NCBI GenBank assembly: GCA_050613775.1 | Contig: JBODTK010000156.1 | Coordinates: 62,001 to 126,000 of the forward strand | Direction of reading: 5' to 3' | Length of the DNA: 64,000 nucleotides | Source: Neocallimastix sp. 'constans' | Taxonomy: Eukaryota | In this document: positions 5,882-53,759 of the stretch, piece after piece | Numbering within the stretch: position 1 is the stretch's first letter | How the letters are laid out: each line of letters starts with the position of its first letter | Notes under the pieces: model-generated | The model's database searches: none | What the model was told of the DNA's origin: nothing | The model's input: only the letters and a program-made list of their open reading frames with translations | Program-made: the position numbers and the translations under genes

Positions 5882-5897
5882 TGTAACGAAACTCATA

Positions 5898-6924
5898 TGG
5901 TAGACTCGGGGTTGACACTTAGATATTTAAAATCAAGCAGGGGGGGACGGGTATTACCCTGCTTTGATTTTAAATAAAAAAAATAATTCTTTATTAAAAG
6001 TTATTTATTTTTTTTTTTTAATATAAAATTTTATTATTTTAAAGTACACACATTTAATTTTTAAGAAATTGTTACAATATTTATATTTTTTTATAAATTT
6101 AAAGTATAATTAATTGTTTATAATTTAAGTAATTTTAGAGAATTATTGAATTAATTTTATATCAATAATTCATTTATGTTTTAATTTTTATAAATATAAT
6201 AATATAATATTCAAATATAATTTAATTAAAAATAATTATAAAATAAATATATAAAAAATAGTTTTTACTATTTTCTTTGATATTTTTAAGTTAAATAAAT
6301 TGTTTTTAAAGATTAATATAATAAATTTAATAATCTTTAATTATTTTAAATAATACTTGTAATTATTTTCAAAATAAAATAAAATTTTTATAATATTTAA
6401 TTAATAAATTTGATAATATTTAAATAATAATTTTTACAATAAGTAAAAATTTTTAATAATAATTTTTAATAATAAATTTAATTAATAATCTTAATAATTT
6501 TATAATAATATTTAATAGTTATAATATATAAATTTTTATAATAATATTTAATAATTTTAATAATTTTATAATATTAATAAATATTAATAATTTATAATAA
6601 TTTTTAGAATAATATTTAATTAATAATTTTAATAATTTTATAATAATTTTTATAATAATATTTAATTAATAGTTTTAATAATTTAGTATCTTAAAAGTAT
6701 AATTTTAATATTTACAATTGTATTTTAATATATACATATATTTAATAATATAACAATAAAGTAATTAATTAAAATTTATTTACATTATTTACAAGTTAAA
6801 ATTAATTTATATCAAAATAAATTAAATTTTATTATTAAGTTTAGGTTATCAAGAATATAGGAAAGTACAATTTAGTAAAGAATTATTAATAATAAAATAA
6901 AGGTTATTAATTCATTCTTTACCA
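5898..6924. mobile_element. Solo LTR W2
   Basis: TGGTA...TACCA termini; three copies in the window; GC-rich hairpin AAAATCAAGCAGGG...CCCTGCTTTGATTTT near one end. Confidence 0.85.
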
Positions 6925-6927
6925 TAA

Positions 6928-7816
6928 TGTAAAGAATTAATTAAAAATATTTAATTATATTAATAATTAATTCTTTCTTATTGTAAAGAATTAATTAAAA
7001 ATATTTAATTATATTAATAATTAATTCTTTCTACAATTAATAATAAAAAATATTATTAATTGAGATAAAATTAAAAAATATAATATAAAAATTGAAAACG
7101 AAAATTTAAAAACTTAGAGTTTATTATAAGATTATAATAAACAACACTAAAAGTAGGTTAAGAGAATTTTAGAAATTATTTTATTATAAAAATTTTTTAT
7201 TTAAAAGTGATTTTAAAATATTTGTGTTAATTATTATAATTTCTTATAATAATAACTCTTGATTATTTTTAGAAGAATCAAGAGTCCTATTTATATTAAT
7301 TTGATTTCTAATCTTGGAAAATTATCTCTATCTAGAAAAAGATTAGAAGAAAAAACTAGATAGATCTCGATTGGTGTTTAATTACATCAATCTTTAGTTA
7401 ATAAGAAAACCCGAATAAGGGAGAAAACTTATTAACTAATTATATATTAATTTTATTAATATTTAATCACAAGTATAATTAAATAATTAATTCTTTTAAT
7501 TATCTTAATTAAAAGTCCAAGAAATAATATAATTTAATTATTTCTTGATTAAATAAAATTATCATTTTAATACAATTTAATTTTTCTTAATTAAATAAAA
7601 TTTAACATTATTTTAATACAATAATACATTATTATAATTTAATATATTAATTATTGATAATTTAATTTAATTTTAAAACAATAACATTAATTAATAATTA
7701 CTATGTGACATAATTAATAAAATTATTCATAAAATTTTATAAAATAATAAACTTTAAATATTAATTTTTTAATAAAGAATAATAATTATTTTGAATAATA
7801 ATTATAATTCTTTACA
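6928..7816 (-). mobile_element. Solo LTR L3 (distant S-family relative)
   Basis: TGTAAAGAATT...AATTCTTTACA inverted termini, CATAA on both sides, S-like palindromic core at 7250-7440, ~54-bp terminal duplication. Confidence 0.8.
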
Positions 7817-7821: not shown

Positions 7822-8820
7822 TGTAAGAATCTATAATTATTTTTAACAAAATAATTATATTTTCTTAGTTAGGTTATAATTAATATAACTTTTATTTAAC
7901 TCATATTTCATTTATACAATTAATTATAATTAATAATTTATTTAATTATATATTAAAATTTTATTTAGTTTAATATTAAAAATTTATTTAATCAAATAAT
8001 TTTTATACATTTAAAATAATATTAAATTTATTTAATTATTCACTTAATTATTAAATTTATTAGTTTTAGTTTTCTCTCACTTATTAAATCATAAACTAAA
8101 ACACTATTCTGTATTTTATCATGTATTCTGTATTCTATCATGTATTCTGTATTGTATTAATCATGTATTTTATTATTAATGTATTGTTTTATATTTTTTA
8201 TGTAAAGTTCTATAAAATAGAACTAAATAGATTAAATTTTAAATTTTATGATCGAAATAATTTTCATTATTTTATTCTTTTATTTTCGATCATTATATTA
8301 GATTAAGTAATCGGTTAATTAAGGTTTTTCCAATTACTTCTTAAAAGTAATCGGTTTTACTTAATTAACACGATGATCGATATGGATAGAATATCGATCA
8401 AAAAACTTATCTAGGTTTTTCTTCTAGTCTTTTCCTAGATAAGAGATTTGTTAAGATTAGAACCCCTTTTGATTTTAACCTTATTTTGACAAAAAAGTAT
8501 AAATAAGGCTCTTGAGTTCTCTTTGAGAAATCAAGAGTTATTATTATAACAATTATTATATAATAATAATAACAATAAGTTTTAACATTTAAAATTTTTA
8601 ATAAATAATAAAACAAATTATTTTAATAAATCAAATTTTATAATTAAAACTTTTCCTTATCAATTTTAGTGTTTCGTCTATTATAATTCGTTATAATAAA
8701 CTCGATAATTAGAAAGAACCATAGGTAAGTATGATTCTTTTCTAAACCTTTAATATTAGCAGTTAGAGCTAATATTAATGATTAATAATTTAATTATAAT
8801 TTTTTAATTAAATTATTACA
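7822..8820 (+). mobile_element. Solo LTR, S family subtype 2
   Basis: TGTAA...TTACA with TSD CATAA; near-identical to 40602-41580 and 58008-58827; TATAAATA at ~8498. Confidence 0.9.
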
Positions 8821-9817
8821 CATAATGTTAAGGTTCGGAGAGAGGGAAAAATAAAAAATAAGTATTAATATAAACAACAAAAAAAATAAACAAACAAGAA
8901 AATTAATAAACAAAATAAATTTTTGTTTTATAAATCCTTTATTAAAATTTTATTTAAAAATTACAATATTAAATTACAATATAAAAAATACAATTTTTTT
9001 ACTGTTATTTATATTTTTTTTTCTTAAAATAATAGAAATGGTAAAGCCATTTCTTTGTATAATAAAAATTAATTATTAAATATTTTATATTAAATTTTTA
9101 TTATTAATATAATTATTCTTTAACTTATAATAAATAATACTTATATATTAATCTATTACTAATTATTTATTACTAATCTACTTAATTATATATTTTAAAA
9201 GACAAATTTTTTATTTTACAGAAATTAATTCTGTGGTTTAGTAATATTTATTTAATCCTAAAGTTTAATTTTACTAAGTTTAGAAAAATAATATTATTTA
9301 AATTATTAATATAAAATTTATAATCATTTCATCAAATTTATAATATAATATTTATAATAAAACATATAATAATAATATAATTATTTCCTTTTATGTTTAA
9401 TCTTTTATTAGTAATCATTAATACAATTTTTTTTTAATTTGGAATTTTCCAAAGAAATAATTGATATTGATAAGTTTAATATTAATAAAAGAAATATTGA
9501 TAAGATTTTGATAAACTATAAAGAAAATTGATAAAATAAACTATATAATATTGATAAGGATTTTAATAATAATAAAATATAGATAAGAATAATAAAGGTA
9601 GCATAGATAAGGAATTAATATTAAATATACTTTTTTAAATAGTATAATTTAATTTGTACTAATTAGGAATATAGATTAATTTATTAGAATATAGAAAGTT
9701 CCAAAAGAATAAAGAATCAAATAATTTGTTTAAGGGTTAAATGAATCATTTAAGATGCATAACCAAAAGAACATTATTTGGGCATTCTTTATCAAGATGC
9801 CCCCACTAAGACTCAAG

Positions 9818-12800
9818 CTATACAGAAGCTGAGTTAAACTTTACTATATTCTTTAAATGGACATTGCGGTTCATTTGGATTCCAGATTTAGGGTCCACAA
9901 GAGTTACCGTATTGAATTGTTTCTTTAATACTTGAAGGGGTCCAACAAAATATGGTTCAAGTTTGGTTCTAGAAAAATTTCGGACTAAGACTAAGTCTCC
10001 AGGCCTAATATTTTTAGCTTGATTCATGCTGTTCTTGCTTTCTCTTCTATTGGCCCAATATTTATTCGCATTTTTCACATTTGCAGCGGCTTCTGTTGTC
10101 CATAAGTAGTGGTTAACAAACTTTTCGAGTAAGATCTCATCAGATGACTTGTTTATTCCTATAGTAGGTCTTGCAGCGATATCGAAAGGTTGCTGGTCTT
10201 CTCTTCCATATACCAGCTCGAAACTTGAATGATTAGTGACAGAATTCTTGGTAGTACGAAGGGCCCATAAAGCAGAAGGTAGTACTTCATCCCATTCCTT
10301 GTGCTTTTCACTTAGAAGTCGAAGTAATTTTCCTATCTCTTTGTTTCTATTCTCTGTGAGTCCATTAGTTTCAGGGTGATAAGTGGTACTAAATTTCACG
10401 TATACATCATAGAGATCGAGGAATATCTTGGTCATATCGGAAGTAAATTGGACACCATTGTCCGTAGTAATCACTTGAGGTACTCCATGGCGTGCAAAAA
10501 CATTGATAAGGAATTTTATAACTTCTTTAGAGGTTACGTTTTCTGTAGGTTCGGCTTCAACCCACTTGGTGAAATAATCGACTACCACCATAATATATTG
10601 ATTGTTGTTGGAAGTTTTCTCTAAAGGTCCAATTATATCAAGACCAAGGTGAGTAAAGGGTCCTTCCACTTCAGTTGGAATATCTTCTGTTGGTTTTGGA
10701 TATGGTTGAGGTTTATTCAATTGGCACTTTTCACATTTAGCTATAATCCTCTTAATGTCGTTTACCATACCATTCCAGTAATAGCTTTTCCTAAGTCGTT
10801 GATAAGTCTTGTGATAACCTTCATGACCGATTTGGTGGGCTTCTAGAATTAGCTTTAATTTTTCGTTAAGATCAGTAACTAATTTTCGGTAGATATTTCC
10901 ATCTATGAAATATTCAACACCATCGATTATAGTAAACTTTTCTTCAATAAATTCTTTTACTACTTTAGATAAAAGAGATTCGTCGACTTCTTTTGTAATT
11001 TTGGTAACTAATACCTTCTTGTCAGTGTCATTCTTCATTCTTGATAGGGCATCTGCAATAACATTCTTTTTACCTGATTCATAGCAGATTTCAACCCCCA
11101 AAAGGTTAGCAGCCATGCACCATCTAGTTTGTCTAGCATTTGTTGGTTCTTTCTTGTTGAACAGTCCGACTAAGGGTTTATGGTCTGTATATATAATAGT
11201 TTTATGAGGATTTCCCATTATATATGATTTGAATTTAGTTAAGCAGTAGAATAAGGCTGTTCCTTCTAAATCAGTTATTCCGTAATTTTTCTCACTTTTG
11301 GTTAGTGTTCGACTCGTATAATGAATTGGGTGTTCTTTGTTAGTTTCTTCATTCTTTTGTAGTAGTACACCACCTACTCCATCATAGGACGCATCAGTTC
11401 TTATAATAAACTCTTTATTGAAAGAAGGGAATTTTAGAATTGGGGCATTCATTAATTTTTCCTTAAGCATTTTAAAGCTTTTCTCTTGTTCATCTTTCCA
11501 TTGGTACTTAACACCTTTTCGCAATAACTTACAAAGAGGAGCTGTGATCTGTGCATATTTATCGATAAAAGTTCTGTAGTATCCAATTGCTCCTAAGAAG
11601 GATCGTAATTCATGGAGATCAGTAGGTGCTATCCATTTTTTAATAGCTTCTATTTTGCTATCCAGAGGACTTAAGCCTTTGTCAGATACCTTGTGACCTA
11701 GAACTTCTACTTCAGATTGCATGAAAGAACATTTTTCAATGTTGATCTTGAGTTTATGTTCCTTGAATACGTCTAATACTTACTTAATGTGATCGAGATG
11801 TTCTTCAACTGTTTTTGAATAGATCAAAATATCGTCAATGAAGTTAAAAACAAATTCACCAATGTAAGGAAAGAGAATCTTATTCATTTCTCTTTGGAAG
11901 GTAGCAGGAGCTCCAGTTAATCCGAAAGGCATTACCTTGAATTGGTAATTACCAAACTTAGTAGTAAAACTGGTTACTTCAACGCTTTCTTCATCCATTA
12001 GTATTTGATGGTAACCAGAATAGAGATCCATTGTAGTAAAAATTTTGGCTCCATCTAAGCTATCGAAAATTTCATCAATATTTGACAAAGAGTAAGAGTC
12101 TTTAATGGTAACATCATTTACTTTTCGGTAGTCGATACACATTCTCCACTTTCCATTATGTTTAGGAACTAAAACTACTGGGGAGGATCACTCTGAATAC
12201 GACGGTTCAATTAGTTTCTTATTGATCAATTTGGTAAGTTCTTCTTTTAGAATATCAGATTTATATTTGGTTACTCTATAATATTTCTGTTTAATTGGTT
12301 TTACACCAGGTTTTAATCTAATTTTATGTGGTGATAAGTCAGAAGGAGTTAATTCTTCAGATGAGGTGGCTATAATTACTAAATAATCCTCAAGCAGTTG
12401 TATAATTTGTTCTCTGAACATTTTATTAAGGGTGTCAGTGAACTTTTTGTTATGAATATATTCTTTAGGAGGTAAACCTTCTATTTTCTTAAGATCGTTG
12501 TTGTTTTCATCAGGTATTGCTTTTAATACACACATTAATTTTTCTTCTTCATCATAAGTGTTGTTAATTGGAGCTATCACATCAATAAGTCCATTATTAT
12601 TCATATAACAGAGACTATACAATGTTGGATGGATAAATAATTTATAATCTACTAAAGTTTTTAAATTAATAAGAATATCATAGAACGGGTCTTCTTTATC
12701 AACTACTCTGCATTTAGCTATCATTTCAAAGTTATTAATTTTTAAGGGAATTTGGACAATGTAATCTTCTGAGTATTCTTCATTTTGGGTAGCTAATCGA

Positions 12801-13815
12801 ATTCTACCGCAACTAACATCGATAGGTTCATAAGTTGTAGGAAGTTTATCCAAAAATTGCTGTGTTACAATATTAAGGTTACTACAGGAGTCCATTAAAG
12901 CTTTTCCTTTTACTCCATCTACCTCAACGTCTACCATTGCGATATCATCTTCATTAGGTTCTATATTCTTACTCTTATATGTATGATCAATATTATTTAC
13001 TAAGATAGTCGTAGCACAAACATTGTTTACAGCACCAGAAATTTTTGTTTGGTCTTTTTCAAATTTTAAGCCTTGTATGACTTTGGTCTTTACTTTTGGA
13101 GACACATCTAGTAGTTGGGCTAAGATAATATTACATTTGATGTTATTCAGATCTTCAATAACATCATAAGGTTTTTGATTCGCAATCATTTGAAGAATTC
13201 TTGGTACTCTTGCAGTTTTGGTTATAGAAGATTTATTATTAATTTTATCATTCACCAATTTTGTTAAAGTTTGTTCTGTTGTATTATCAGGAGTATTATT
13301 TGAATATCAATAATATTATTAGTTTCTGATTTGTCAATTTCAATAGTTTTAACTTGTCTTTTTGAAGTATTAGCTCGTTCTTTATCACGTAGCTCTTTTT
13401 CTTTTTCTTTTTCCTTATTAATTAAAGGTTGAGTAAGTATTGATGGGTGAATCTGACTCCGAGTTGATTTTTGCTTTGGGTTTTCCATTAGTTCATTTTC
13501 TTTTTTCTTTCTTAATGCAGGTGTTGCAATTGGTCTAGGGTTATCTTTAAGACTTCGATGTATTTTCTTTCCTGGACTAGATTCTAGTTTGTCATCTTTT
13601 TTTCGTTTAATTGCAGCGCATAAATAACTTTCATTTTCTTCTAAGTCAGATTTACTTACTTTTTCAGTATGAAATTCTTCTTCATTTTCTGATTCTGATT
13701 CCATACTTATTACTTCTTGAAGGTGATTTTGTTGTGGTTCTTCTAAGGTTGATTGAAATTTGACTGAAGCAATTTTATTGACGATGGGAGTGCTTCTTCT
13801 CCCTTTTAGTGATTT
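9818..13815 (-). pseudogene. G2 pol (PR-RT-RNase H-integrase), broken by a frameshift near 13260 and stops at 12188 and 11780
   Basis: PR MDSCS; RT YQFKVMPFGL and FIDD; RNase H TDAS; integrase HHCC, GLDIIGP, TDNGVQF and YFVGPL. Confidence 0.95.
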
Positions 13816-13821
13816 AAATTT
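13766..13821 (-). promoter_or_regulatory. -1 ribosomal frameshift signal (slippery heptamers plus H-type pseudoknot)
   Basis: A_AAU_UUA and U_UUA_AAU in the gag frame, 8-nt spacer, stems GGGAG/CUCCC and GAAGCA/UGCUUC; the -1 frame is open into pol. Confidence 0.8.
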
Positions 13822-14792
13822 TTATTTTCGAAATATTCTTGGCGATTTTTATCAACAATCGCTTTAAGCTTAGGACAGTTATTCTGATAATGACCTTTTT
13901 CCGTACAGAAGAAACATGTACTAATAGTTAAGTTTTTCATTCGTTTTGTTAGATCTTCAACATCTGAATCTTTTACTGGCTTCCTTGGTTCTGAGAAAGA
14001 TTTCTGTTTAAATTTCTTTTTATTAAAATTGGAGGGCTTATTATAGTGAGGATAAGTATTTTCGTCTGAATCATAAGCAATTTTAGGAATAAGTCTATCT
14101 ACTTTTTCCGCTATTTCAAAGGCTTTATTGAGAGAAATATTATCCTTAAGGGAAACTCTTTTCCATGCCTCTTTATTATTTTGTAATGAGTCGGCATAGT
14201 CTAATACACTAATTCGTTTTCTTCTTTTAATATCCAACTTGTGGTAAAGAGTTCGGTAGCGTATATTAAAATCTTTCACTTTTTCGTTCCTTTTAATTTT
14301 AAGTGCACGAAGTTCTCTGAGTAGAACATTTTGATCTTCTTTTAGGCCATAGAATTTTTCTAATTCGTCCACAATTTTGTCTAAACTTGGGAAATTATGA
14401 ATATTGTCATCACCGATGTTATTATCTTCGTCATTATCATCATCACTAAAGATATTATCATTTTCCATATCTTGGATGATTTCTCTTATTTCACCGGTAG
14501 AAGTCAAAATACAAGCTATAAATATTGTTTCTGGATCAACCACTTGCTGATATCTGATCCATAATTTTAGTTCAGAGGCCCAGGATTTTATATCTAAGTT
14601 GTCTTTACTAAGTTTTTCTATTCCCTTAAGTTCCTTCTTTAAGTCTTTAAAATTAATTCGACTATTATTTATAGCTACTGGACTGGGAATAGAGGGTGAT
14701 GCACTAGACGAGCCACCACTATCAGAAGAAGAGTTTTCCGACATGTTTGAATTTATTGAAAGAAGTAGTAATGAATCAAGTAGAGTATACAA
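13806..14792 (-). CDS. G2 Gag with CCHC zinc knuckle (likely start MSENSS at 14744)
   Basis: CFFCTEKGHYQNNC; lies upstream of pol. Confidence 0.9.
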   Translation of the reverse strand: MYTLLDSLLLLSINSNMSENSSSDSGGSSSASPSIPSPVAINNSRINFKDLKKELKGIEKLSKDNLDIKSWASELKLWIRYQQVVDPETIFIACILTSTGEIREIIQDMENDNIFSDDDNDEDNNIGDDNIHNFPSLDKIVDELEKFYGLKEDQNVLLRELRALKIKRNEKVKDFNIRYRTLYHKLDIKRRKRISVLDYADSLQNNKEAWKRVSLKDNISLNKAFEIAEKVDRLIPKIAYDSDENTYPHYNKPSNFNKKKFKQKSFSEPRKPVKDSDVEDLTKRMKNLTISTCFFCTEKGHYQNNCPKLKAIVDKNRQEYFENKNLNH

Positions 14793-15121
14793 GGTTAATA
14801 GTTATATTAAAAAAAATATTTTTGTGTTACCAGGTAATAAAGATTTGATTAATAACCTCAATGTATTTTTCTTGAGTAGTAGAGTTTTATTTTTTTATAA
14901 TAAATTAGCCAAAAGTTATCAATTTAATTATTTTGAATAAGTAGTAAACAATGGATTCAACAACCAAATAAATTTAAGATATAAACTAGCGTCAACTTGA
15001 CCACCAAATATATCAATTCGTAGAATAGTTAAGCTCGAATTCCCCTTCGACCCACTTAACGATGAAAATATATTAATAATTTACTAGTTGAGCTCGAATT
15101 CCTCTTCGACCCACTCAACAG

Positions 15122-15164
<43 letters not shown>

Positions 15165-15579
15165 TTGAATTTACTTAAATTTATTTTTTTTTATTTAGAA
15201 GCTTATTTTTATAAAAAAAAAAATTAATTTAATATTGTTATTATCAAGTTGAATTACCGACCAAGTTATATTATAAACTACTAGCTTATGGGTCTTTCGT
15301 CCGATAATATTCATTCCGTCACCTTATTCACGTGATCTATGTTCCGTCACACGCTTCAGGATCTTAATATTACCCCTACTATCCCCCTCTTGACAGCTAG
15401 TAAGGCTTGTTTATGCTGAATATAACTTGTTTAATTCAATCTTGATAAGAAAAGAATATTTCAATTATCAATATTAAATTAAACAAAGTAGCTTCCTCAA
15501 ATGTTCTTTTTCAATTCTATTTAAAATTTTTGGATATTTATTAGAATAAAAATATTATTAATATTATTATTTGTATTAT

Positions 15580-16179
15580 TGTAACGAATCTTAAAAAATT
15601 AGAAATTAGAATGCTGGCATAGTGGTTAGTCACTATGACCTCAGCCTGAACCACTAGGGTTCGACTCACACCTTTACTAAAATTTTATATCATTTAAATT
15701 TTAAAGAATTTTTATACTTCATTTCTGTATTTGTTTCTGTATTTGTTTCTGTATAAATTTCTGAAAAAATTAACAAAAGAAATTCTTAGAAATTAATAGA
15801 AACAAATCAGATAGAAATTCTATTTTAATTTATCTTTTATCATTATTTCTTTTAGATTCTTTTTAACCGAAAATAATCAATTTTTACGAAACTTTTTAAT
15901 GATTTTATGGTTTTAAATTTTTATGGATTTAAATTTTGAAAAACTATAAATAGGAGTGAATTTCGCAGCCAAAAGATTCTAAAAATTGTGTTTTTATTAA
16001 TTATTAAATTAATTAATAAGTAATTCGAAATATTACAATAATTAATCTTTATAATTAATATTTTTAAATTTCTTAATTAATAAAACTATATTTTAAAAAA
16101 CCAAATTACTTATTAATCAAAAAGTGCTTACCTATTGTGTTACACTCTTTAAAACACGGATATTCCAATATTCGTTACA
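15580..16179 (+). mobile_element. Solo LTR T2 (T family, with Pol III A/B boxes), in the G2 leader
   Basis: TGTAACGAA...TTCGTTACA, TSD ATTAT, A box TGGCATAGTGG at 15615, B box GGTTCGACTC at 15658, CTATAAATAGG at ~15945. Confidence 0.9.
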
Positions 16180-16709
16180 ATTATAAAAAAAAATTTTTTT
16201 TTTTTTTTTATTTATTACTCTAAAAAAAAGTTAAAATTTAAATTATAAAATACTTAAAAAAAAATTAAATTTTATCATTAATTAATTATTTCTTGAACAA
16301 CGGCATTTCCGGAAATTTTCCGTACTTAAAACAGAACGTAGAGTGGTAGTATGTAAGTCAACCCAGCTCGCCTATTACGGCTTCATGTGGTGCTTACACC
16401 AGGCGCTTCTGCTTACTATTAAACAGAACGACCAGAGCTTAAGAATAATTGTCACTACAATTAATTCTTAAGAGTAATTAACCCGAAAACCCTCTACTTC
16501 TTGAGTTCTGAGATAAGTACGCTTCTAAATCGTACTAACTCCAATGCCCAAGAAAAATAAAAAAAAAAGATAAAATTTAAAATTTATTCGAAGCTTCACG
16601 GATAATATAAATTATCTAACACTTCGAAATATAAAAAAAAAAATTGTTTTTTTAAGAAAATTATATTTATTTTAATATTATTTATATTATCTTATTTTTA
16701 ATTTTATTC

Positions 16710-16727
16710 TCCCCGATATCTCCACCA
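16710..16727 (-). promoter_or_regulatory. G2 primer-binding site, complementary to a tRNA-Ala-like 3' end
   Basis: TGGTGGAGATATCGGGGA, 7 nt inside the 5' LTR; eukaryotic tRNA-Ala typically ends ...UCUCCACCA. Confidence 0.8.
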
Positions 16728-17661
16728 AATTTTATGTTAAGGTTCGGAGAGAGGGAAAAATAAAAAATAAGTATTAATATAAACAACAAAAAAAATAAAC
16801 AAACAAGAAAATTAATAAACAAAATAAATTTTTGTTTTATAAATCCTTTATTAAAATTTTATTTAAAAATTACAATATTAAATTACAATATAAAAAATAC
16901 AATTTTTTTACTGTTATTTATATTTTTTTTTTTCTTAAAATAATAGAAATGGTAAAGCCATTTCTTTGTATAATAAAAATTAATTATTAAATATTTTATA
17001 TTAAATTTTTATTATTAATATAATTATTCTTTAACTTATAATAAATAATACTTATATATTAATCTATTACTAATTATTTATTACTAATCTACTTAATTAT
17101 ATATTTTAAAAGACAAATTTTTTTATTTTACAGAAGTTAATTCTGTGGTTTAGTAATATTTATTTAATCCTAAAGTTTAATTTTACTAAGTTTAGAAAAA
17201 TAATATTATTTAAATTATTAATATAAAATTTATAATCATTTCATCAAATTTATAATATAATATTTATAATAAAACATATAATAATAATATAATTATTTCC
17301 TTTTATGTTTAATCTTTTATTAGTAATCATTAATACAATTTTTTTTTAATTTGGAATTTTCCAAAGAAATAATTGATATTGATAAGTTTAATATTAATAA
17401 AAGAAATATTGATAAGATTTTGATAAACTATAAAGAAAATTGATAAAATAAACTATATAATATTGATAAGGATTTTAATAATAATAAAATATAGATAAGA
17501 ATAATAAAGGTAGCATAGATAAGGAATTAATATTAAATATACTTTTTTAAATAGTATAATTTAATTTGTACTAATTAGGAATATAGATTAATTTATTAGA
17601 ATATAGAAAGTTCCAAAAGAATAAAGAATCAAATAATTTGTTTAAGGGTTAAATGAATCAT

Positions 17662-18227
17662 TGTTAAGATAATAACTGAATTTCAATTCAATTTCAATTT
17701 CGATAATTCAGTTATTTGAATTTCAATATTAATAAATAATAATAATATAATAATTATTATTAAATTAACTTTATTAAAATATTTAGGAATTAGTCTAGGC
17801 CAACTAATTACTAAATATTATTAACATATTGAATTTAATATATATTAAATAATGTAAACACGTGATTGTCATTAAATTAATTTCTACATATTATATTTTA
17901 ATTATAAAATATAATATTTAGCAATATTTGATTCTTATATTTTATTTATATTAAATATTTATATTATTATCTAACTTTATATTATCAATATCAAACTTAT
18001 ATTAATATTATTTACATATTCATATTAATAATTAATATTTTAATAATTAATTATTTTATATAAATACATGTTTAAATTCTTTGATTAATCCTTTGTAGGA
18101 TTATTGTAATTTAAATTATAGTAATAATTATATAAAATAATAATAATAAAATTTAATTATTAATAAATTACTATAATTTGGCATCTTGACCTAATCGTTA
18201 AGACCAAATTATCTAAAAACTTTGACA
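17662..18227. mobile_element. Solo LTR Z1 inside the G2 5' LTR
   Basis: TGTT...GACA, TSD ATCAT; absent from the other G2 LTR; homolog at 50304-50953. Confidence 0.9.
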
Positions 18228-18837
18228 ATCATTTAAGATGCATAACCAAAAGAACATTATTTAGGCATTCTTTATCGATAATTAGTAAATTAGTAACTAC
18301 GGTTCAATTGTAAGTTACCATAACCATCGGGTTGAACCCTTAGGGTTCGACACCCACTCTTTCCAAATTTTAATAACTTTTTATTTATTATAACTAGAAT
18401 ATTAAAGAAATTACTAGTGTTTATCGGTTAAACAATTGAACCGATAAAACTAGAAAAATCTATTTTATTAATATTTTTTATCATTTTTTATCTAAGATTC
18501 ATTTTCTAGAAAGAAAACTTGTTTTCTTTAATTTTCTTTAATTTTCTTTTATTTCTAATAATTACTAATAACAACTGATAACTTAAAATAATTAATTTTC
18601 CTGAAAAACTATAAATAGGTGTAAAATTTCATAATAAAATATTTTTACTTGTGCTTTTATTAATTACTTTTAAAGTAATTTAAAATATTACAATGATTAA
18701 TTAATAAAATAATAATTTATATTTTTACTAATAAAAAAACTTATTTTAATAAAACATATTTTGAATTACTTTAGTGTCGAGAACCTTTTGTGTAAAAAAC
18801 CTTATAACAATCTTAAGTAACATTAAGATTTGTTACA

Positions 18838-18847
18838 ATAAAAGCAC
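18838..18847 (+). promoter_or_regulatory. Self-priming PBS of T1
   Basis: ATAAAAGCAC directly after the LTR is the reverse complement of GTGCTTTTAT (18651-18660), about 40 bp downstream of TATAAATA. Confidence 0.8.
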
Positions 18848-18882
18848 CCTTTGACAAAAAACACGAAACCTTCTCGAGACAA

Positions 18883-20373: not shown

Positions 20374-23240
20374 ATGGAAGAAGATACCTTTTTAAATGCC
20401 AGTGCTACCAATAAAGATGGATTCGCTGGAGATCGTCGTTACTTGATCCCGAACGATTTAATAATGACCCAATAAAGGTTGTGTATATCATTTCTAGACT
20501 CTACGGCTCTGCAATGAACTGGGCTGCTACTTTAATTGAAAATAACGATCCATGTTTAAATAACTATCAACAATTCACCTCAAGATTTAAAGATACTTTT
20601 GGGAGCTACGATTCGACTTTCATTGCTAACCAGAAATTGAAGACAATTAAACAAAGACGCATCGGTGAAATAACAAACTATATTCTCGAATTCAATAGAT
20701 ATTCTGACGAATCTTCATGGAATGAAGAAGCTAAAATGGATGCTTTCCTCAATGGACTTAATGACCAAATTGCTACCAAAATATATGAAATGTTTCCAGG
20801 ACCAAGATCTCTTTTCGCATTACAAACTATTGCCTCTAGACTAGATAGTCGTATTCGTATTGCTGCGCATAGACAATTTTCTAATCCACAAAACAGATCA
20901 AATAATAATAATAATAATGATAACAGAAATAATAACAGAAACAATAATAATAGAAGACAAAATAAAGGGGAAAAGCCTTTCAAATTCAATACCCGAGGTC
21001 CTTTGTCTAATGAAGAAAAGGAAAGAAGAAGAAAAGAACATCTTTGTGCCTATTGTGGATCAGCTAACCATTCCCTTGACCATTGCCCACTAGTAAACAG
21101 AAATAAAGCCTCTTCAAGCAGTTCTCATATCACTAATCTTGAACCTAAAACCATTCCAAGAATAAGAATTTCTGATCAACCCGATGTAAAGCTACCAATT
21201 TTTGAATTCTCTCTTAATGTTTCCAATATTTCTACAAAAACTAAAATTCTTCTGGACTGCGGCTCTCAACTTAATTTAATGGATGTATACTTCGCAAAAG
21301 AAAACAATATTCCTTACTCTAGTGAATGTAATCTCCCTAATGTATCTGGAATCGGCGGTATTCAGTCAATCATAGGTAAAACTGCACCAATATCCTTAAA
21401 ATATAAAAACCACATATGTAAAACAAGTTTCTATGTTGTTGACCTTCCTTCGTATTGTGCTATTTTAGGCATTGACTGGCTAGAAACTCATAATCCCACT
21501 ATAGACTTTGCCTCAAAAGAACTCTCTTTCAAATCCAACTATTGTATTTCCAATTGTCTTGTACTTCCCAGCGCCTTCACTACTTATGTTCCTTTAAATA
21601 CTATTAAAAAGAATGATAAAGAAGAAGAAGATAAAGAAAGTAATAAAGTAAATAAATCATTACCAAAGAAATTACTTCCATTTAAGGATATTTTTAGCGA
21701 AATATATGCGAATGCACTTTCTCCAAGACCTGATTATACATCAAATGAAGAAGAACTGTCCTCTGACATTCCTTTCAACGTCTTAAAACCTGAAAATTTT
21801 TGCGCTACCACTTCCATTGCCTCTTTAAATGATCAAATACTCCATGAATATAAGAATGATAAATATTATAATGAAATCTGCAAAAAACTCAACTCTAAAC
21901 AAGACTTCCCAGAATCTAATAAATTTTCTTTAAGTAACAACTTCTTACTCTTTGATGGAAAAATTTATGTTCCCCTTAACTGTCGTTCTTCCGTATTAAA
22001 TATCTGTCATGACTCCCCATCTGCTGGTCATTTTGGTTTCAAGAAAACTTTCTCCTTAATCAATCATGACTTTTGGTGGTCATCTATGCAAAAAGATATT
22101 AAAGACTATATTAAATCTTGTGAAATCTGTTGTCGTTCAAAGGATTCTAGACACAAACCTTATGGATTTCTGAACCCCCTAGAAATTCCTGACCGACCTT
22201 GGACTTCGCTTTCCATGGATTTCATCACTGATCTCCCTTCATCTAATGGATATACTTGTATTTTTGTTGTTCTCGATAGATTCACAAAAATGGGTCACTT
22301 CATCCCATTTCCTAACGTTCCTTCTTCTGAAGATACTGCTAAGGCATTCATGACTCATATTTTCAGACTTCATGGATTACCAAATGAAATTCTTTCCGAT
22401 AGAGGTACTCAATTCACTTCTAAATTCTGGACTTCTATTTGCAAAACTCTCAATATCTCAATGAAACTTTCTTCTCCCTTTCACCATCAAACTAACGGTT
22501 TAACGGAGAGGGTGAACTCCGTTGTAGAACAATTTCTCAGATGTTACTCTAATTTTAAAGGTTCAAATTGGCATAATTATCTATTCCTTGCTGAATTCTG
22601 CTACAACAATTCTATTCAAGAATCATTAAATAAATCACCTTTCTACGCAAATTATGGTTACAACCTTCGCTTCTCACCAGCTGTGCCAAGTTCTATTGAT
22701 GTTCCGGGTGCTGAAGAATTTACAACAAACTTAGCGAAACTTTTCAAACAATTAAAAGAAAATTTAAAACAAGCAAGAAATAAACAAGAAAAATTCGCCA
22801 ACCAACACAGAATTAAAGCACCTGAATTCAAAGTAAACGACAAAGTTTGGATAAACAGTTCACTCATATTAAGAAATAAAAATAAAAAATTAAAACCAAG
22901 AAAGTTAGGACCTTATAAAATAATTGAAAAAGTCTCTCCAGTAACATACAAAATTGATTTTCCAAAAAATATAAGAATACACCCAATTATTCATGTATCA
23001 GAACTTGAGCCATACTATAAAGACAATTTTAAAAGAAAAAAGGAACCTCCACCTCCAATTATAGTTAATGATGAAGAAGAATATGATGTAGAAGAAATAC
23101 TTGATAAAAGAAAACATTATGGAAAGATTCAATATCTTATTAAGTGGAAAGGATATCCTTTATCTGAAGCATCTTGGGAACCGGAAGAAAACCTCAACTG
23201 TCCAGAAATACTCAAAAAATTTTATAAATCAAACAAATAA
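20374..23240 (+). pseudogene. T1 gag-PR-integrase-chromodomain with an in-frame deletion of RT/RNase H and a frameshift near the gag start
   Basis: [39 protein letters not shown], chromodomain YDVEEILD...YLIKWKGY...SWEP; no YxDD. ATG 20374 (MEEDTF..FAGDRRY) is out of frame with the 20481 ORF. Confidence 0.9.
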
Positions 23241-24476
23241 ACTTATATTTAGAAAATGAATCTATAATATTAATTATACAAAAATTTATATTTATTAATA
23301 TCAAATTTATTTCTATTAATATCAATATCAATAATCTTTATTATTTTTACTTATTAATATAAATATTATTTAAATTCATGTAACCTTATTATTAATAATG
23401 TATTTTTATGTTTATCATGTATTGAAATTTTACACCAAATAACTATCAAAATAATTTATATATTAAAATAATTAAATAAAATTTTCTTAGTATAGTTTAG
23501 CCTAGCTTTGAGATTCGTCTGGTATCCGAATCCTAGAGGAGGACCATGTTGTAAAATATTTAATAATTTGAATACGTATTTAAATGTAATGTAATGTAAA
23601 TTATTGTGGATAAAAATGTTTTCCAAATTTTTAATATAAATTTAAATGTATTCCAAATTATTAATTTAATTAATTTTCTCAAAAATGTATGACTAAATTA
23701 TTTGGAGAATTTACATCATTATTACTCACTTTGAATCATGAAACTTGTAAATTAAAAATAATTAGTCATGAAACTTGTAAATTAAAAATAATTAGTCATA
23801 AATTAGTTAAATTAAAGTAATCAAAGAAAAATTGCCTTTTCCGTTTGTTTACAAAAACTTGCCGTTTTGTTTATTTGTTTTTAGAAATATTAGATAGTTT
23901 TAAATAGTTTTTATATTAAAATAACTCATAAAAATTCATGTAATTTATTATTAAATGTAATTACAAATATATAATAATATTTTAGTTAGTTTATTACAAT
24001 CTATTCAATTTAAATTTTAATTTTCAAAAAGTATAAAAAGAGTTAATTTTCAACTATTGAACGATAGTTGGAAAATAGTATAGAAAATAGTATAGTTTAG
24101 AATAGTATAGTTTAGTATAGATAATATAGATAGTATAAATTTTATATTTTATTAATTAGTATTATAACTATTATTAGAATAGTTATCTTTTATAAAACAA
24201 ATTTTATTTTAAATTTTATTTTAAAATCTTAACTGCTAGTAGGCTTTCCGGTAAAGGACCCTACGGTACCCAGTTAAGTGATTGTTGATTTTAGAATAGT
24301 TAAATTCAACAAATAAGAAATATTAATAAAAGGATTTTTTTATAAAACAAAAAATTAAATTAGTTTTTTAGTTTTAGTGTTTTAGTTAATAATTAATTAT
24401 AGTGTTGATATAATAAAATAGTGTAAAATAAATTATAGTCTGTCCTCGCCGACCTAAGCTATTATTTTATTTTACA

Positions 24477-24487
24477 ATTTTCCAACT
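24477..24487 (+). promoter_or_regulatory. Self-priming PBS of G3
   Basis: ATTTTCCAACT is complementary to AGTTGGAAAAT (24066-24076), about 34 bp after TATAAAA. Confidence 0.85.
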
Positions 24488-24629
24488 CGTTAGATTAGTA
24501 TAGTTTACCTTTGTGTAGGATAGACTAGTAATAGTATAAAAATTTTTTTTTTTTTGAAATAATAATTAAAAAGTGGATTTAGTAATACTTTATAGTTTAA
24601 TTTATAGTTTAATAAATAATAATAATAAG

Positions 24630-27600
24630 ATGAATTACATAAATATCAACAATCAACATCCAGGAGCTAGGGGAGACTTTGACGCAGCCTCTGAAGCCAG
24701 CTCCATGGAAATAGAAAATGAGGTTGGTAATAACGTCAATACCAGGGCACGCCTCATTCCGAAACCAAAAGCATTCTCCGGAAGAAGAAACGAACTACCA
24801 GCCTTCCTTGGTCAAATCAACCGATATTTTAAGTACAATTTAGACGAAGAAGCTGCTGCTGATGACGAATTCAAGATTGATATTATAAGTAGTTATTTGG
24901 AGGGAAACGCTGCTGAATGGTTTGCTGATCTAGTTAAAGAAGAAAGTCCACTATTGGAAAATTACGAGAATTTTATTGACGCTTTGCAACAACGTTACAA
25001 ATCCTGTGCAAGTTCAGATGTCGCGAACAGTCGACTTACCAAGATACGTAGCCAACAATTTAGAACAATAGCCGAATACTGCAATCAGTTCGAGAAAATA
25101 GCCAGAGATTCATCATTTAATGACGAAGCTAAAATCCATTTTTTCATTGAGGGTTTACCAACAAGAGAAAAAGAAAGAACCAAACTAATTTATCCTAGAA
25201 TTAGAAGAATTAATGAACTAATTAATGTTGTAGCTGCTAATGCTGAAGAAGATCGTCGTGTTAACGGAAATGACCCAATGGATATAGATCAAAGAAGAAT
25301 TAGACCTTTTCGTAGGGATTTAGGATCAAGTCGTTACCAAAATAATTACCGAAGTAGCCAAAATTACAGGGATTCTTCACCAAAGAGGTCAACCAAACCG
25401 AAGAAGTGTTTTATATGTAAGAGCACAAGCAACTTAAAGGAAAACTGTCCCAAGCAACAGGACAAAATTAGAAAAAGAGAAAAGATCTTACAGATTAAAT
25501 TGAGCAAGAAAAGTTTAGCTCACACTTACAATGTTGTTTTTAAGTACAAAAATGGTTTTATTATGTCCGCAATTCTAGATACTGGCTCAGATCTTAATAT
25601 TATGGATAGAGCTACCGCCGATAAATACCAGATCCCAATACAACGAATCCGCCATGAGAAAAACGTTATCGGATTTAACGGAAATGGAACAATTCGTTAT
25701 GAAACCATTCCATTAACTATGGTCATGGGTCAACATATCGAAACCATTCAATTTTACATTTATAGTTTACCAAAAGGAATTTCGGTTATTTTAGGAAATC
25801 CATGGTTGAAGAAGCATTGCCCAACAATTGAATTTGATAAAGGTAATATCAGATTCAGTTCCCAATACTGCAAGAGGAATTGTTGTGCCACCGCTGAAGA
25901 TATTATGAGAAGAACAACTGAAGAAAAGAAGAAAAAAGATGAAATCCGCCGAAGTAAGATACAATTAGCTAGAGAAATTATTAATAATTATAATAATGTA
26001 TTAGATAGTTTAGATAATAATGATGTTAAAAAATTAGTCGATAATAAAAATAAATTATGTAGTAAAAAATCACGTAATATAAAGGCTATTATGAAAAAAG
26101 CCTTAGTTAAAAAAGAAAAATGTATTAAAAGAAAAGAATTAAATAAAGGAAAATTTGAAAATTATGCTTTCTGTTATGTTTTAAAAAATGAAAATAAAGA
26201 TAAAAGTGTTATTAAATGTGATTATAATAATGAAAGTGTTAAAGAAAATAAAAGTTTGGAAAGAATACCAAAACAATATGAGAAATTTAAAAATGTGTTT
26301 GATGAACAAGAGTGTAACGAATTACCACCACATCGTCCATACGACTGTAAAATTAGATTAAAGGATGATGTTGACTTATTTTATGGTCCTTTATATCCAT
26401 TAACGGAGGAAGAACGTGAAGCTTTAAAAGAATATATCAAAGAAAATTTAGAAAAAGGCTTCATTAGACCTTCAACATCTCCTGCTGGTGCTCCAATTTT
26501 ATTCGTTAGAAAAAAGGATGGAAGTTTAAGACTTTGTGTCGATTATCGAAGACTTAATGAAAATACTATAAGGGACTCCTATCCACTCCCTTTAATCACC
26601 GAGCTTTTTGACAGATTGAGAGAAGCTAAGTATTTTACTAAGTTAGATTTAAAATCAGCTTATAACCTGGTAAGAATACGTGAAGGTGATGAATATAAAA
26701 CAGCATTTCGAACAAGATATGGTCATTTCGAATATCTTGTTATGCCATTTGGTTTGAAGAATGCTCCAGCAACTTTCCAACACTTTATTAATGACGTTTT
26801 AGGAGAATACTTAGATGAATTTGCTTTTGCCTATATCGATGATATACTTATTTATTCTGAGACATTAGAAGAACACCGTACACATGTTAAGAAAATACTT
26901 AAGAAATTACAAGAAAGTGGTCTTTATGCAAAATTAAGTAAGTGTGAATTTGAAGTCCAGAAAACAACATTCTTGGGGCACGTAATATCCAATCAAGGAA
27001 TTTCCATGGATCCGGATAAAGTTAAGTCTATCTTAGAATGGCCAATACCAACTACAGTCAAAGAAGTACAATCATTTATAGGTTTATGCAACTACTACCG
27101 AAGATTCATCCCAAACTTTGCTAAAATTGCTAAGCCGTTACACAACTTAACAAGAAAAGATATTAAATATGAATGGACTGAAGAATGCTCCGTTGCATTC
27201 GAAACTTTGAAGAAACTTTTTACCATAGAACCTATTCTTGCCCATGCAGATCCAGAATTACCGTTTATAGTAGAGACAGATGCAAGTAATTTTGCAATTG
27301 GTGCCGTATTATCTCAAAGAAATAAGGATACAAATGAGTTACATCCAATTTGTTATTATTCAAGAGGTTTAACAAAATCTGAAAAGAATTATCCAATATA
27401 TGACAAGGAATTATTAGCTGTCAAGTGTGCGTTACAAGAATGGAGACATTACTTAGAAGGGGCTAAGCATCAATTTACAATTTATACCGATCATAAAAAT
27501 TTAACTTTTCCACGTAAACCTGAGTTGTTATCTCAACGTCAAATAAGATGGAACTTATTCTTATCTCGATTTGATTACAAAATACAATATAGACCAGGAA

Positions 27601-29198: not shown

Positions 29199-30160
29199 GT
29201 CGCTCAGGGGCTCGACTTAAACAGAGGGGCATGTAAAATATTTAATAATTTGAATACGTATTTAAATGTAATGTAATGTAAATTATTGTGGATAAAAATG
29301 TTTTCCAAATTTTTAATATAAATTTAAATGTATTCCAAATTATTAATTTAATTAATTTTCTCAAAAATGTATGACTAAATTATTTGGAGAATTTACATCA
29401 TTATTACTCACTTTGAATCATGAAACTTGTAAATTAAAAATAATTAGTCATGAAACTTGTAAATTAAAAATAATTAGTCATAAATTAGTTAAATTAAAGT
29501 AATCAAAGAAAAATTGCCTTTTCCGTTTGTTTACAAAAACTTGCCGTTTTGTTTATTTGTTTTTAGAAATATTAGATAGTTTTAAATAGTTTTTATATTA
29601 AAATAACTCATAAAAATTCATGTAATTTATTATTAAATGTAATTACAAATATATAATAATATTTTAGTTAGTTTATTACAATCTATTCAATTTAAATTTT
29701 AATTTTCAAAAAGTATAAAAAGAGTTAATTTTCAACTATTGAACGATAGTTGGAAAATAGTATAGAAAATAGTATAGTTTAGAATAGTATAGTTTAGTAT
29801 AGATAATATAGATAGTATAAATTTTATATTTTATTAATTAGTATTATAACTATTATTAGAATAGTTATCTTTTATAAAACAAATTTTATTTTAAATTTTA
29901 TTTTAAAATCTTAACTGCTAGTAGGCTTTCCGGTAAAGGACCCTACGGTACCCAGTTAAGTGATTGTTGATTTTAGAATAGTTAAATTCAACAAATAAGA
30001 AATATTAATAAAAGGATTTTTTTATAAAACAAAAAATTAAATTAGTTTTTTAGTTTTAGTGTTTTAGTTAATAATTAATTATAGTGTTGATATAATAAAA
30101 TAGTGTAAAATAAATTATAGTCTGTCCTCGCCGACCTAAGCTATTATTTTATTTTACACA

Positions 30161-30733
30161 TGTAACGAAACTCATAACTAGTAAATTAGTAACTATGGTT
30201 CAATGGTAAGTTACCATAACCATCGGGCTGAACCCTTAGGGTTCGACACCCACTCTTTCCAAATTTTAATAACTTTTTATTTATTATAACTAGAATATTA
30301 AAGAAATTACTAGTGTTTATCGGTTAAACAATTGAACCGATAAAACTAGAAAAATCTATTTTATTAATATTTTTTATCATTTTTTATCTAAGATTCATTT
30401 TCTAGAAAGAAAACTTGTTTTCTTTAATTTTCTTTAATTTTCTTTTATTTCTAATAATTACTAATAACAACTGATAACTTAAAATAATTAATTTTCCTGA
30501 AAAACTATAAATAGGTGTAAAATTTCATAATAAAATATTTTTACTTGTGCTTTTATTAATTAATTTTAAAGTAATTTAAAATATTACAATGATTAATTAA
30601 TAAAATAATAATTTATATTTTTACTAATAAAAAAACTTATTTTAATAAAACATATTTTGAATTACTTTAGTGTCGAGAACCTTTTGTGTAAAAAACCTTA
30701 TAACAATCTTAAGTAACATTAAGATTTGTTACA
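30161..30733 (+). mobile_element. T1 3' LTR with Pol III-type A box (30196-30206) and B box (30240-30250)
   Basis: TGGTTCAATGG...GGTTCGACACC; direct repeat of 5882-5897 plus 18282-18837. Confidence 0.92.
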
Positions 30734-47593: not shown

Positions 47594-47734
47594 GGTATAA
47601 ATATAGAACTGCTTACAATTGGGTTCCTTCAGACGAAGTTGAAAATAACCCCCGAAATCAAAATATTTATTTACAATATTTACAAAATGATTTCAATAGC
47701 TTATAACTAAAATGATAATAATAATAATAATATT

Positions 47735-47773
<39 letters not shown>

Positions 47774-53676: not shown

Positions 53677-53744
<68 letters not shown>

Positions 53745-53759
53745 TGTTGTTATTGTTAA

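What the first reader, a model, noticed from the sequence alone, without database searches (positions are those of the whole stretch)
15601..15690. tRNA-type A/B-box promoter conserved in three diverged chromovirus LTRs
Seen: the A box starts at LTR position 36-38 and the B box 43-44 nt later in T2 (TGGCATAGTGG/GGTTCGACTC), T1 (TGGTTCAATGG/GGTTCGACACC, 30196/30240) and T3 (TGGTTCAATGG/GGTTTGACTC). A T4 run follows within about 20 nt. The spacing is tRNA-like and the flanks diverge, but I cannot fold a cloverleaf. A separate TATA box lies about 300 bp downstream. Known precedent from memory: 5S sequence in Cassandra LTRs and tRNA-like sequence in LTRs of non-coding Helenus elements. Here it is in a protein-coding, self-priming chromovirus. 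Inference: it makes a ~85-nt Pol III RNA or acts as a TFIIIC chromatin barrier protecting the Pol II promoter.
Basis: partly seen in the sequence, partly recalled or inferred. Interest (0 to 1): 0.8.

Follow-up and report, generated by a model that had tools for sequence, protein, structure and literature searches.

The report
Retrotransposon carrying a tRNA-gene decoy
A jumping-gene family in a rumen fungus carries a tRNA-gene-like promoter in its end repeats, and 14 other jumping-gene insertions sit at fixed distances just in front of it, which likely means the cell's tRNA transcription machinery binds there and other elements use it as a landing pad.

Summary
Confirmed. All four LTR copies of one self-priming chromovirus family (T) in a Neocallimastix window carry tRNA-type A and B boxes 43-44 nt apart; no tRNA folds. 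Target-site duplications show that T1's 5' LTR and T3 are split by about 12 kb stacks of other retroelements. Fourteen insertions from at least four families lie at fixed offsets from the A box: ten at -26..-17 (Ty3/DGLT-A window), three at -74..-68, one at -37..-33. Nine K and T insertions lie elsewhere. These insertions make up 49% of the window. Six of 8 substitutions in two LTR pairs fall within 71 nt of one A box. Best reading: a TFIIIC/TFIIIB assembly site in U3, separate from the TATA/self-priming Pol II promoter, used by Pol III-targeting elements as if it were a tRNA gene. Its benefit to T (chromatin barrier) is inferred only. No genome, reads or further T LTRs were available; two boxes are now mutated. 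Closest: Helenus/Cassandra (non-coding TRIMs). The scan had no note of this element, only stacks at real tRNA genes in other genomes.

The parts
15580..16179 (+). T2 solo LTR (5-bp TSD), inserted in the 5' UTR of element E; no insertion upstream of its boxes
15615..15625 (+). T2 A box (LTR position 36)
15658..15667 (+). T2 B box
15683..15686 (+). first T4 run after the T2 B box (A+68), candidate weak Pol III terminator
15945..15953 (+). T2 TATA box (Pol II promoter), 9 of 10 columns invariant in T1/T2/T3
5882..5897 (+). true 5' start of the T1 5' LTR (16-nt stub), preceded by the T1 TSD that recurs after 30733
5898..6924 (-). D1 solo LTR (D/E family), TSD at -23..-20 from the A box; right junction imperfect
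6928..7816 (.). X solo LTR (65-67% similar to C), 5-bp TSD at -23..-19
7822..8820 (.). C1 solo LTR, same 5-bp TSD at -23..-19
8826..18277 (-). element E, gypsy-type without chromodomain, 4-bp TSD at -22..-19 (directly measured)
17662..18227 (+). F1 solo LTR inside E's A-box-proximal LTR, TSD at -72..-68 (directly measured)
18278..18837 (+). remainder of the T1 5' LTR: A box 18300-18310 (two derived substitutions), B box 18344-18353, TATA 18610, predicted R start near 18651
18838..18847 (+). T1 PBS, 10 of 10 complementary to the LTR sequence 41 nt after the TATA start (self-priming)
20415..23240 (+). T1 ORF: Gag - protease - integrase - SH3 - chromodomain; RT/RNase H deleted in frame in this copy
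23535..23543 (+). T1 polypurine tract
23550..30158 (+). element N, intact chromovirus with 100% identical LTRs, inserted at the T1 PPT/3' LTR junction, TSD at -37..-33
30161..30733 (+). T1 3' LTR: A box 30196-30206, B box 30240-30249
37656..38269 (-). T3: main part of the 5' LTR (A box 38249-38239, B box 38206-38197 with C56T) followed by an 11-nt PBS and a terminal remnant
38270..39615 (.). Y LTR (D/E-like termini), TSD at -20..-17, containing C3
38276..38963 (.). C3 solo LTR inserted in Y's proximal terminus, TSD at -26..-22 (directly measured)
39617..40594 (+). D3 solo LTR, sharing one 4-bp TSD pair with Y
40602..41580 (.). C2 solo LTR, TSD at T3 positions 13-17 (-23..-19)
41588..42531 (.). 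C' solo LTR, TSD overlapping the proximal end of E' (-25..-21 reconstructed)
42535..50248 (+). E' solo LTR (68% to the E LTR), 4-bp TSD at T3 positions 13-16, interrupted by G
42586..49357 (+). G block, chromovirus-type, inserted 46 nt from the proximal end of E' (-74..-70 reconstructed); its two LTRs differ (66-72%), so possibly two insertions at one site
50249..50264 (-). true 5' start of the T3 LTR (16-nt stub), flanked by the T3 TSD
50304..50953 (+). F2 solo LTR in the K3 LTR that flanks T3, TSD at -74..-70 from the T3 A box before the stack formed

Best explanation
The U3 region of this chromovirus LTR begins with a tRNA-gene-derived A box and B box that likely assemble TFIIIC and TFIIIB in the fungus, and other retrotransposon families have inserted at fixed distances upstream of it, likely because their integrases dock on that complex as they would at a tRNA gene. 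Shown: boxes at tRNA spacing in 4 of 4 T LTRs; 14 insertions in three narrow bands; a separate TATA box and a PBS complementary to the predicted R start, so the genomic RNA is a Pol II transcript and the boxes are not its promoter. Inferred: TFIIIC binds the boxes and places TFIIIB upstream, with the Pol III start near -19. D/E and C/X elements insert at that start (Ty3/DGLT-A-like) and F/G elements about 50 bp further up. Each new insertion lands between the previous one and the A box, so stacks grow outward. In a 5' LTR this costs T little (U3 is copied from the 3' LTR, established retroviral/LTR replication); in a 3' LTR it kills the copy (N in T1). Least supported step (about 0.45 given binding): T keeps the boxes because the bound complex insulates its downstream Pol II promoter from the heterochromatin that its chromodomain integrase is expected to target.
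For: TSD-resolved map and offsets: 10 insertions at -26..-17, 3 at -74..-68, 1 at -37..-33. Five offsets (E, F1, N, Y, C3) need no reconstruction. Converted to the virtual mature 5' end (7 nt upstream of the A box, PMC5391098 section 14) these are 10-19 and 61-67 bp, against 10-19/13-16/13-33 bp and 55-65/63-64 bp for dictyostelid DGLT-A families (PMC5006619 Table 1) and 1-4 bp upstream of a TSS about 10 bp before the mature tRNA for Ty3 (PMC5911963 Table 1). The three -70 targets are unrelated sequences (E LTR, E' LTR, K3 LTR). F1, G, C' and C3 went into the A-box-proximal end of earlier elements, kb away from the LTR's own terminus, so the landmark lies downstream of LTR position 17. Control: 6 of 6 K and 3 of 3 T insertions lie elsewhere (13:1 against 0:9, Fisher 1e-5, grouping chosen after seeing the data); of 44 60-nt segments at the termini of 11 elements only N's showed an adjoining LTR start, T1's own. 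6 of 8 substitutions in the T1 and E LTR pairs (1529 nt) lie in 71 nt around the T1 5' A box (p=3e-7, post hoc), as reported for active tRNA loci (PMC6130373). A/B-box loci without tRNA context are targeted by TRE5-A in Dictyostelium (PMC5391098). E, G, N and T1 integrases are only 28-47% identical.
Against: No direct binding or transcript data. I could not check that D/E, C and F/G sit at the same offsets before real tRNA genes (no genome; no tRNA gene in the window). The two stacked copies are those with damaged boxes today: T1 5' A box (derived changes) and T3 B box C56T, timing unknown. T2, with perfect boxes, has no insertion (1 of 4 copies). One C-family site (C0/C4, in copia pol) has no A/B box nearby. 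Nine of the 14 offsets assume the element was next to the A box when it inserted; identical TSDs do not fix the order of D1/X/C1/E. Insertions in one stack are not independent; only three loci carry them. No T LTR outside the window was found, so conservation rests on three sequences. T4 is a weak terminator signal in AT-rich DNA.
Confidence: 0.72

Rival explanations
1. Another host factor bound in the T LTR U3 (a Sap1- or CENP-B-like protein, as recalled for Tf1/Tf2 LTRs in fission yeast) or the nucleosome-free region of the Pol II promoter guides the insertions; the A/B match is a tRNA relic.
For: The A box is always at LTR position 36, so any landmark between position 18 and the TATA box would fit the offsets equally. 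Stacks sit at copies whose boxes are now mutated. Both large stacks are in 5' LTRs.
Against: The offsets coincide with published Pol III-targeting windows. The boxes are the best conserved G/C columns of U3. Insertions are 330-400 bp from the TATA box yet confined to bands 7-10 nt wide.
Confidence: 0.12
2. The boxes do bind the Pol III machinery, but T keeps them for a short Pol III RNA (about 85 nt, two hairpins) or has simply not lost a captured tRNA/SINE head; there is no barrier function. This differs from the best explanation only in why the boxes persist.
For: Each copy folds better than shuffles (z -1.6 to -2.9); a hairpin ending in the B box is 92% paired across 4 rows with one compensated pair; T4 falls just after virtual tRNA position 73; local hypermutation suggests real transcription.
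Against: The A-box hairpin uses a different register in each copy (64% paired) and covariation does not beat shuffles clearly (39-54 of 500). Neutral retention fits poorly with box conservation while the segment between them is no more conserved than the rest of the LTR.
Confidence: 0.3
3. The stacks arise because elements insert next to LTR ends or at a preferred short sequence; the boxes are irrelevant.
For: X, C1 and E share one TSD; N sits at an LTR start; F1, G and G0 all lie 45-46 nt inside a D/E-type LTR end.
Against: TSD sequences differ between loci; F2 has the same -70 offset in an unrelated K LTR; K, copia, C0 and T2 termini carry no neighbours.
Confidence: 0.08
4. The boxes are the promoter of the genomic RNA, as in Cassandra and as proposed for Helenus.
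For: Same motif type inside an LTR (PMC10886601).
Against: T4-T6 runs follow within 15-160 nt; the element is about 5.8 kb without nested DNA even after losing RT/RNase H; self-priming needs a 5' end 41 nt after the TATA box, about 350 nt downstream of the A box.
Confidence: 0.03

Closest known systems
Helenus / TRIMp3 (Kojima 2024, PMC10886601; read: parts 1-4 of 6, abstract to Discussion)
   Same: tRNA-derived A and B boxes inside the LTR, not a functional tRNA, 5-bp TSD, fungal members.
   Different: Helenus are 311-1263 bp, non-coding, tRNA-primed, and the boxes are proposed to drive their own RNA; fungal ones are from Pucciniales and Agaricomycetes. The paper expects autonomous partners to use Pol II and not to share such LTRs. 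Here the boxes sit in U3 of a Gag-Pol chromovirus lineage with its own TATA box and self-priming PBS.
Cassandra (5S-derived promoter in LTRs; as described in PMC10886601 and the search listing of 10.1101/2023.07.14.548913)
   Same: Captured Pol III internal promoter maintained in an LTR.
   Different: 5S type, non-autonomous plant TRIM, promoter of the genomic RNA.
Ty3, Tj1 and DGLT-A targeting of Pol III genes (PMC5911963, PMC4600332, PMC5006619; passages read)
   Same: The invading D/E and C/X elements occupy the same window (10-19 bp before the virtual mature 5' end); F/G matches D. lacteum DGLT-A (55-65 bp).
   Different: The target is a mobile LTR, not a tRNA or 5S gene; host is Neocallimastigomycota; G and N are chromovirus-type integrases inserting upstream.
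A/B-box loci on Dictyostelium extrachromosomal rDNA targeted by TRE5-A (PMC5391098; abstract and section 14 part 1 read)
   Same: A/B boxes without tRNA context inferred to assemble Pol III complexes because a tRNA-targeting element inserts at its usual distance.
   Different: Those loci are fixed parts of rDNA; here the site moves with a retrotransposon.
tDNA/TFIIIC heterochromatin barriers of fission yeast (PMC2040200, abstract read; PMC4502379, search listing)
   Same: Offers the mechanism for the proposed benefit to T.
   Different: Barrier activity is not shown here.
Tf1/sushi-type self-priming chromoviruses (self-priming as described in PMC4600332)
   Same: PBS complementary to the predicted transcript start; integrase with SH3 and chromodomain; 5-bp TSD.
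   Different: A/B boxes in U3; none in the LTRs of N, G, K or E in this window, nor in a comparable position in 93 fetched loci.

Membership tests
Type 2 (tRNA-type) Pol III promoter | A box consensus TRGYNNARNNG | tested here: met
   0 mismatches in T2, T1 3', T3; 1 in T1 5'; consensus wording recalled, similar to TRRYNNARYNG in PMC5391098
Type 2 (tRNA-type) Pol III promoter | B box GTTCRANNC | tested here: met
   3 of 4 copies; T3 has T for the invariant C
Type 2 (tRNA-type) Pol III promoter | A-B distance 30-60 bp | tested here: met
   43-44 nt start to start
Type 2 (tRNA-type) Pol III promoter | oligo-T terminator downstream | tested here: inconclusive
   T4 at A+66..68 in 3 of 3, T5 at +78, +94, +213; high background
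Type 2 (tRNA-type) Pol III promoter | TFIIIC/TFIIIB/Pol III occupancy or transcript | not testable with these tools
   no read or ChIP data; only indirect evidence from insertion offsets and local substitutions
tRNA gene | cloverleaf / covariance-model match | tested here: not met
   ARAGORN 0; Rfam no tRNA hit at E<=10 on the three boxes; acceptor and T stems only partly paired
Helenus / TRIMp3 | short (<1.3 kb), non-coding TRIM | tested here: not met
   T1 encodes a 941-aa Gag-PR-IN ORF; relatives 1313-1432 aa with RT
Helenus / TRIMp3 | tRNA-derived A/B boxes in the LTR | tested here: met
   YGG in 3 of 3, GGTTC in 2 of 3; TRGCY fully in none
Helenus / TRIMp3 | PBS complementary to a host tRNA | tested here: not met
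   PBS is complementary to the element's own LTR; host tRNAs were not available to compare
Self-priming chromovirus (Tf1/sushi type) | chromodomain at the integrase C terminus | tested here: met
   PF00385 E=1e-15 in T1
Self-priming chromovirus (Tf1/sushi type) | PBS complementary to the transcript 5' end | tested here: met
   T1 10 of 10; T3 11 nt with one G-U; the transcript start itself is predicted
Self-priming chromovirus (Tf1/sushi type) | RT and RNase H | tested here: not met
   absent from the T1 copy (about 430-aa in-frame gap against P0005); present in P0004-P0006, P0033
Pol III-targeting retrotransposons (Ty3/DGLT-A type), for the invading D/E, C/X, F/G families | insertion in a narrow window upstream of an A box | tested here: met
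   13 of 14 resolved sites
Pol III-targeting retrotransposons (Ty3/DGLT-A type), for the invading D/E, C/X, F/G families | same window at genuine tRNA genes; integrase-TFIIIB contact | not testable with these tools
   no genome held, no tRNA gene in the window
SINE2 inserted in an LTR | tRNA head plus body/tail and own TSD | tested here: inconclusive
   no tail or TSD visible in the alignment; origin too old to tell

The most novel reading that the evidence does not exclude
An autonomous chromovirus lineage carries a mobile, working tRNA-type promoter that is not its own promoter. It insulates the element and also seeds retrotransposon islands: every new T LTR is a landing pad for several lineages that independently evolved Pol III targeting in anaerobic gut fungi, in three distance classes, so half of this window was built by one 75-bp motif.
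Probability: 0.45. Interest if true: 0.88.

Novelty: new variant of a known kind. Interest (0 to 1): 0.78.

Why it matters
Pol III targeting is usually explained as a safe-harbour strategy of compact genomes (PMC5006619, PMC5911963). Here it appears in a large repeat-rich genome, and the target itself transposes, which gives a concrete mechanism for nested retrotransposon clusters. It breaks the expectation in PMC10886601 that Pol III boxes belong to short non-coding TRIMs and suggests how such LTRs could arise from coding elements. It makes testable whether a heterochromatin-seeking element carries its own barrier. Anaerobic gut fungi lack good genetic tools (recalled); site-specific elements such as E and a portable 75-bp target could be useful.

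Tried and rejected
More T LTRs: none found. No genome is held. A profile of the three LTRs found only the 4 window copies in the window plus 93 loci. Box and LTR-end patterns gave 0 hits in viral contigs and 1 chance hit in a bacterial coding region. The fetched loci are not held as genomes. Sequencing reads could not be obtained, so expression and other junctions are untested. tRNA or other Rfam family: rejected. A single conserved RNA fold: not shown; my first structure string was out of register, the corrected one gave 75% paired with 39-54 of 500 shuffles as high, and RNAalifold chose a different first helix. First reading of the T1 5' LTR as truncated by a deletion was wrong; its start lies at 5882. 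Left out of the insertion counts: D2, G0 and the sequence at 1368-2047 (context runs off the window), the copia elements and two short repeats (TSDs not resolved); C0 and C4 counted as one site; G counted once. Navaratna et al. 2024 on LTR elements of anaerobic fungi (doi 10.1016/j.fgb.2024.103897) is not held (only its reference line seen) and may bear on novelty. Literature searches that found no report of this arrangement; Repbase and Dfam were not available. Supplements of the papers were not read.

Full report
Setting. The window is mostly 7-36% GC per kb and is a nest of LTR elements. Its one recognised host gene, a SAM synthetase, matches Neocallimastix at 100% over its last exon, and the T1 integrase groups with an Orpinomyces protein at 100/100 support. 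No genome is held.

Observation. The boxes are real and at the stated places. Three strict A+B pairs occur against 0.003 expected (300 shuffles); a fourth copy has a mutated A box. A profile search finds exactly four T LTRs, all with the boxes. Box columns are more conserved than the downstream LTR (15 of 21 against 178 of 402; G/C columns 9 of 13 against 16 of 150), while the segment between them is not (14 of 32). With three sequences this is modest evidence. The geometry is that of an intronless tRNA gene, with the first T4 just after virtual position 73, but ARAGORN and Rfam see no tRNA and no single fold is conserved.

The element. T1 spans 5882-30733 with a 5-bp TSD. Its ORF has Gag, protease, integrase, SH3 and chromodomain but no RT/RNase H; relatives at 81-89% identity in the integrase region are complete. 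The PBS pairs with the LTR 41 nt after the TATA box (10 of 10 in T1; 11 nt with one G-U in T3). By the Tf1 mechanism (PMC4600332) that marks the transcript start, so the genomic RNA starts about 350 nt downstream of the A box. The boxes are in U3 and are not the genomic promoter.

The first 16 nt of T1's 5' LTR lie at 5882, 12.4 kb from the rest; the first 16 nt of T3 lie at 50264, 12.0 kb from the rest. With the inserts subtracted, each LTR has 35 nt before the A box. The inserts are stacks, each member bounded by its own TSD (D1's right junction and the D3/Y junction are imperfect). Relative to the first base of the A box: D1 -23..-20, X and C1 -23..-19, E -22..-19, E' -23..-20, C' -25..-21, C2 -23..-19, D3 and Y -20..-17, C3 -26..-22; F1 -72..-68, G -74..-70, F2 -74..-70; N -37..-33. 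E, F1, N, Y and C3 are measured directly; the other nine assume adjacency to the A box at insertion. Together they fill 31.6 kb, 49% of the window.

Controls. Six K-family and three T-family insertions are not near any box; one C-family site is not either. LTR ends in general do not attract neighbours: of 44 segments at the termini of 11 elements only N's showed one, T1's own LTR. F1, G, C' and C3 entered the A-box-proximal end of earlier elements after the LTR's own terminus had been pushed away, so the landmark is downstream of LTR position 17. F2 has the -70 offset in an unrelated K LTR, which a rule based on D/E sequence does not explain. Rough chance values for three F/G insertions in one 7-nt band within 100 bp of a box are 1e-5 to 1e-9; for two independent first hits in the -26..-17 band 0.02 to 1e-4, by assumed target size (post hoc).

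Comparison of offsets. With the mature 5' end 7 nt before the A box (PMC5391098) the bands are 10-19, 26-30 and 61-67 bp. DGLT-A families insert at 10-19, 13-16, 13-33, 16-34, 55-65 and 63-64 bp (PMC5006619); Ty3 1-4 bp before a start about 10 bp upstream (PMC5911963). TRE5-A targets A/B-box loci with no tRNA context, read there as Pol III assembly sites. The same logic applies here, with at least four families whose integrases, where present, are 28-47% identical.

Second, independent hint. Four of 5 substitutions between the T1 LTRs and 2 of 3 between the E LTRs lie in 71 nt around the T1 5' A box (6 of 8 in 1529 nt, p=3e-7 post hoc); where polarity can be read the derived states are at this locus. 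Active tRNA loci mutate 7-10 times faster (PMC6130373). Repair at repeated integrations could also cause this.

Against. No occupancy or RNA data; no real tRNA gene to calibrate on; stacks at only three loci; T2 with perfect boxes is empty (it is nested in E, so young); the two stacked copies now have damaged boxes, and the T3 change cannot be dated.

Mechanism. Most likely (0.72) the boxes assemble TFIIIC and TFIIIB and are read as a tRNA gene by Pol III-targeting elements. Why T keeps them is open. A barrier for its Pol II promoter is my preferred reading, since chromodomains steer integration to heterochromatin (PMC4600332) and tDNAs block its spread (PMC2040200), but nothing here tests it; a short RNA or mere persistence remain possible.

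Novelty. tRNA-derived boxes in LTRs are known from Helenus and 5S boxes from Cassandra, both non-coding TRIMs; T fails the TRIM and tRNA-primer tests. Pol III targeting is known from yeasts and dictyostelids. I found no report of boxes in a coding, self-priming chromovirus LTR, of an LTR serving as the Pol III target of other elements, or of such targeting in anaerobic fungi; Navaratna 2024, Repbase and Dfam were not available. Earlier scan notes describe stacks at real tRNA genes in other genomes and nothing on this element. Verdict: real; new variant of known kinds; interest 0.78.

Noticed in passing
window 15225-15415 (minus strand) and L014 195-400: A ~190-nt G/C-rich stretch in the 5' UTR of element E aligns with the 5' UTR of L014, a T-clade chromovirus (159 invariant columns of about 195 shared), although their integrase lineages are only about 28% identical. 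RNAalifold finds 4 compensated pairs in 2 sequences; no Rfam match. Candidate IRES, ribozyme or packaging RNA shared across lineages; worth its own follow-up.
   Followed up: partly
window 1-1363: G-family LTR (G0) inserted 45 nt inside the end of D2, the same geometry as F1 and G; a further D/E-like terminus follows at 1368. Looks like a third stack pointing to an A box left of the window.
   Followed up: partly
window 20415-23240: T1 has a clean in-frame loss of RT and RNase H at a short look-alike motif; P0012 and P0036 also lack RT/RNase H domains, so RT-less Gag-PR-IN derivatives may recur.
   Followed up: partly
window 2048-2910 and 58008-58830: Two different C subfamilies (77% identical) sit at the same site in two copia copies that are 96% identical; independent hits at a boxless hotspot or gene conversion.
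   Followed up: partly
window 52535-54560 (minus): Intron-containing S-adenosylmethionine synthetase gene; last exon 100% identical to a Neocallimastix protein, 91% to Anaeromyces.
   Followed up: yes
window 5935-5965, 1297-1327, 40525-40555: D-family LTRs carry a G/C-rich hairpin near one end in otherwise ~10% GC sequence.
   Followed up: no
window 19770-20230 and 18880-18985: T1 5' UTR holds a G/C-rich 460-nt block and a short tandem repeat after the PBS; no Rfam match in the window scan.
   Followed up: no
window 15030-15115: Two ~60-nt direct repeats with a G/C-rich core in E's 5' UTR.
   Followed up: no
window 37656-37671: T3 ends in PBS plus a second LTR terminus, likely a microhomology deletion of the whole internal part.
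   Followed up: no
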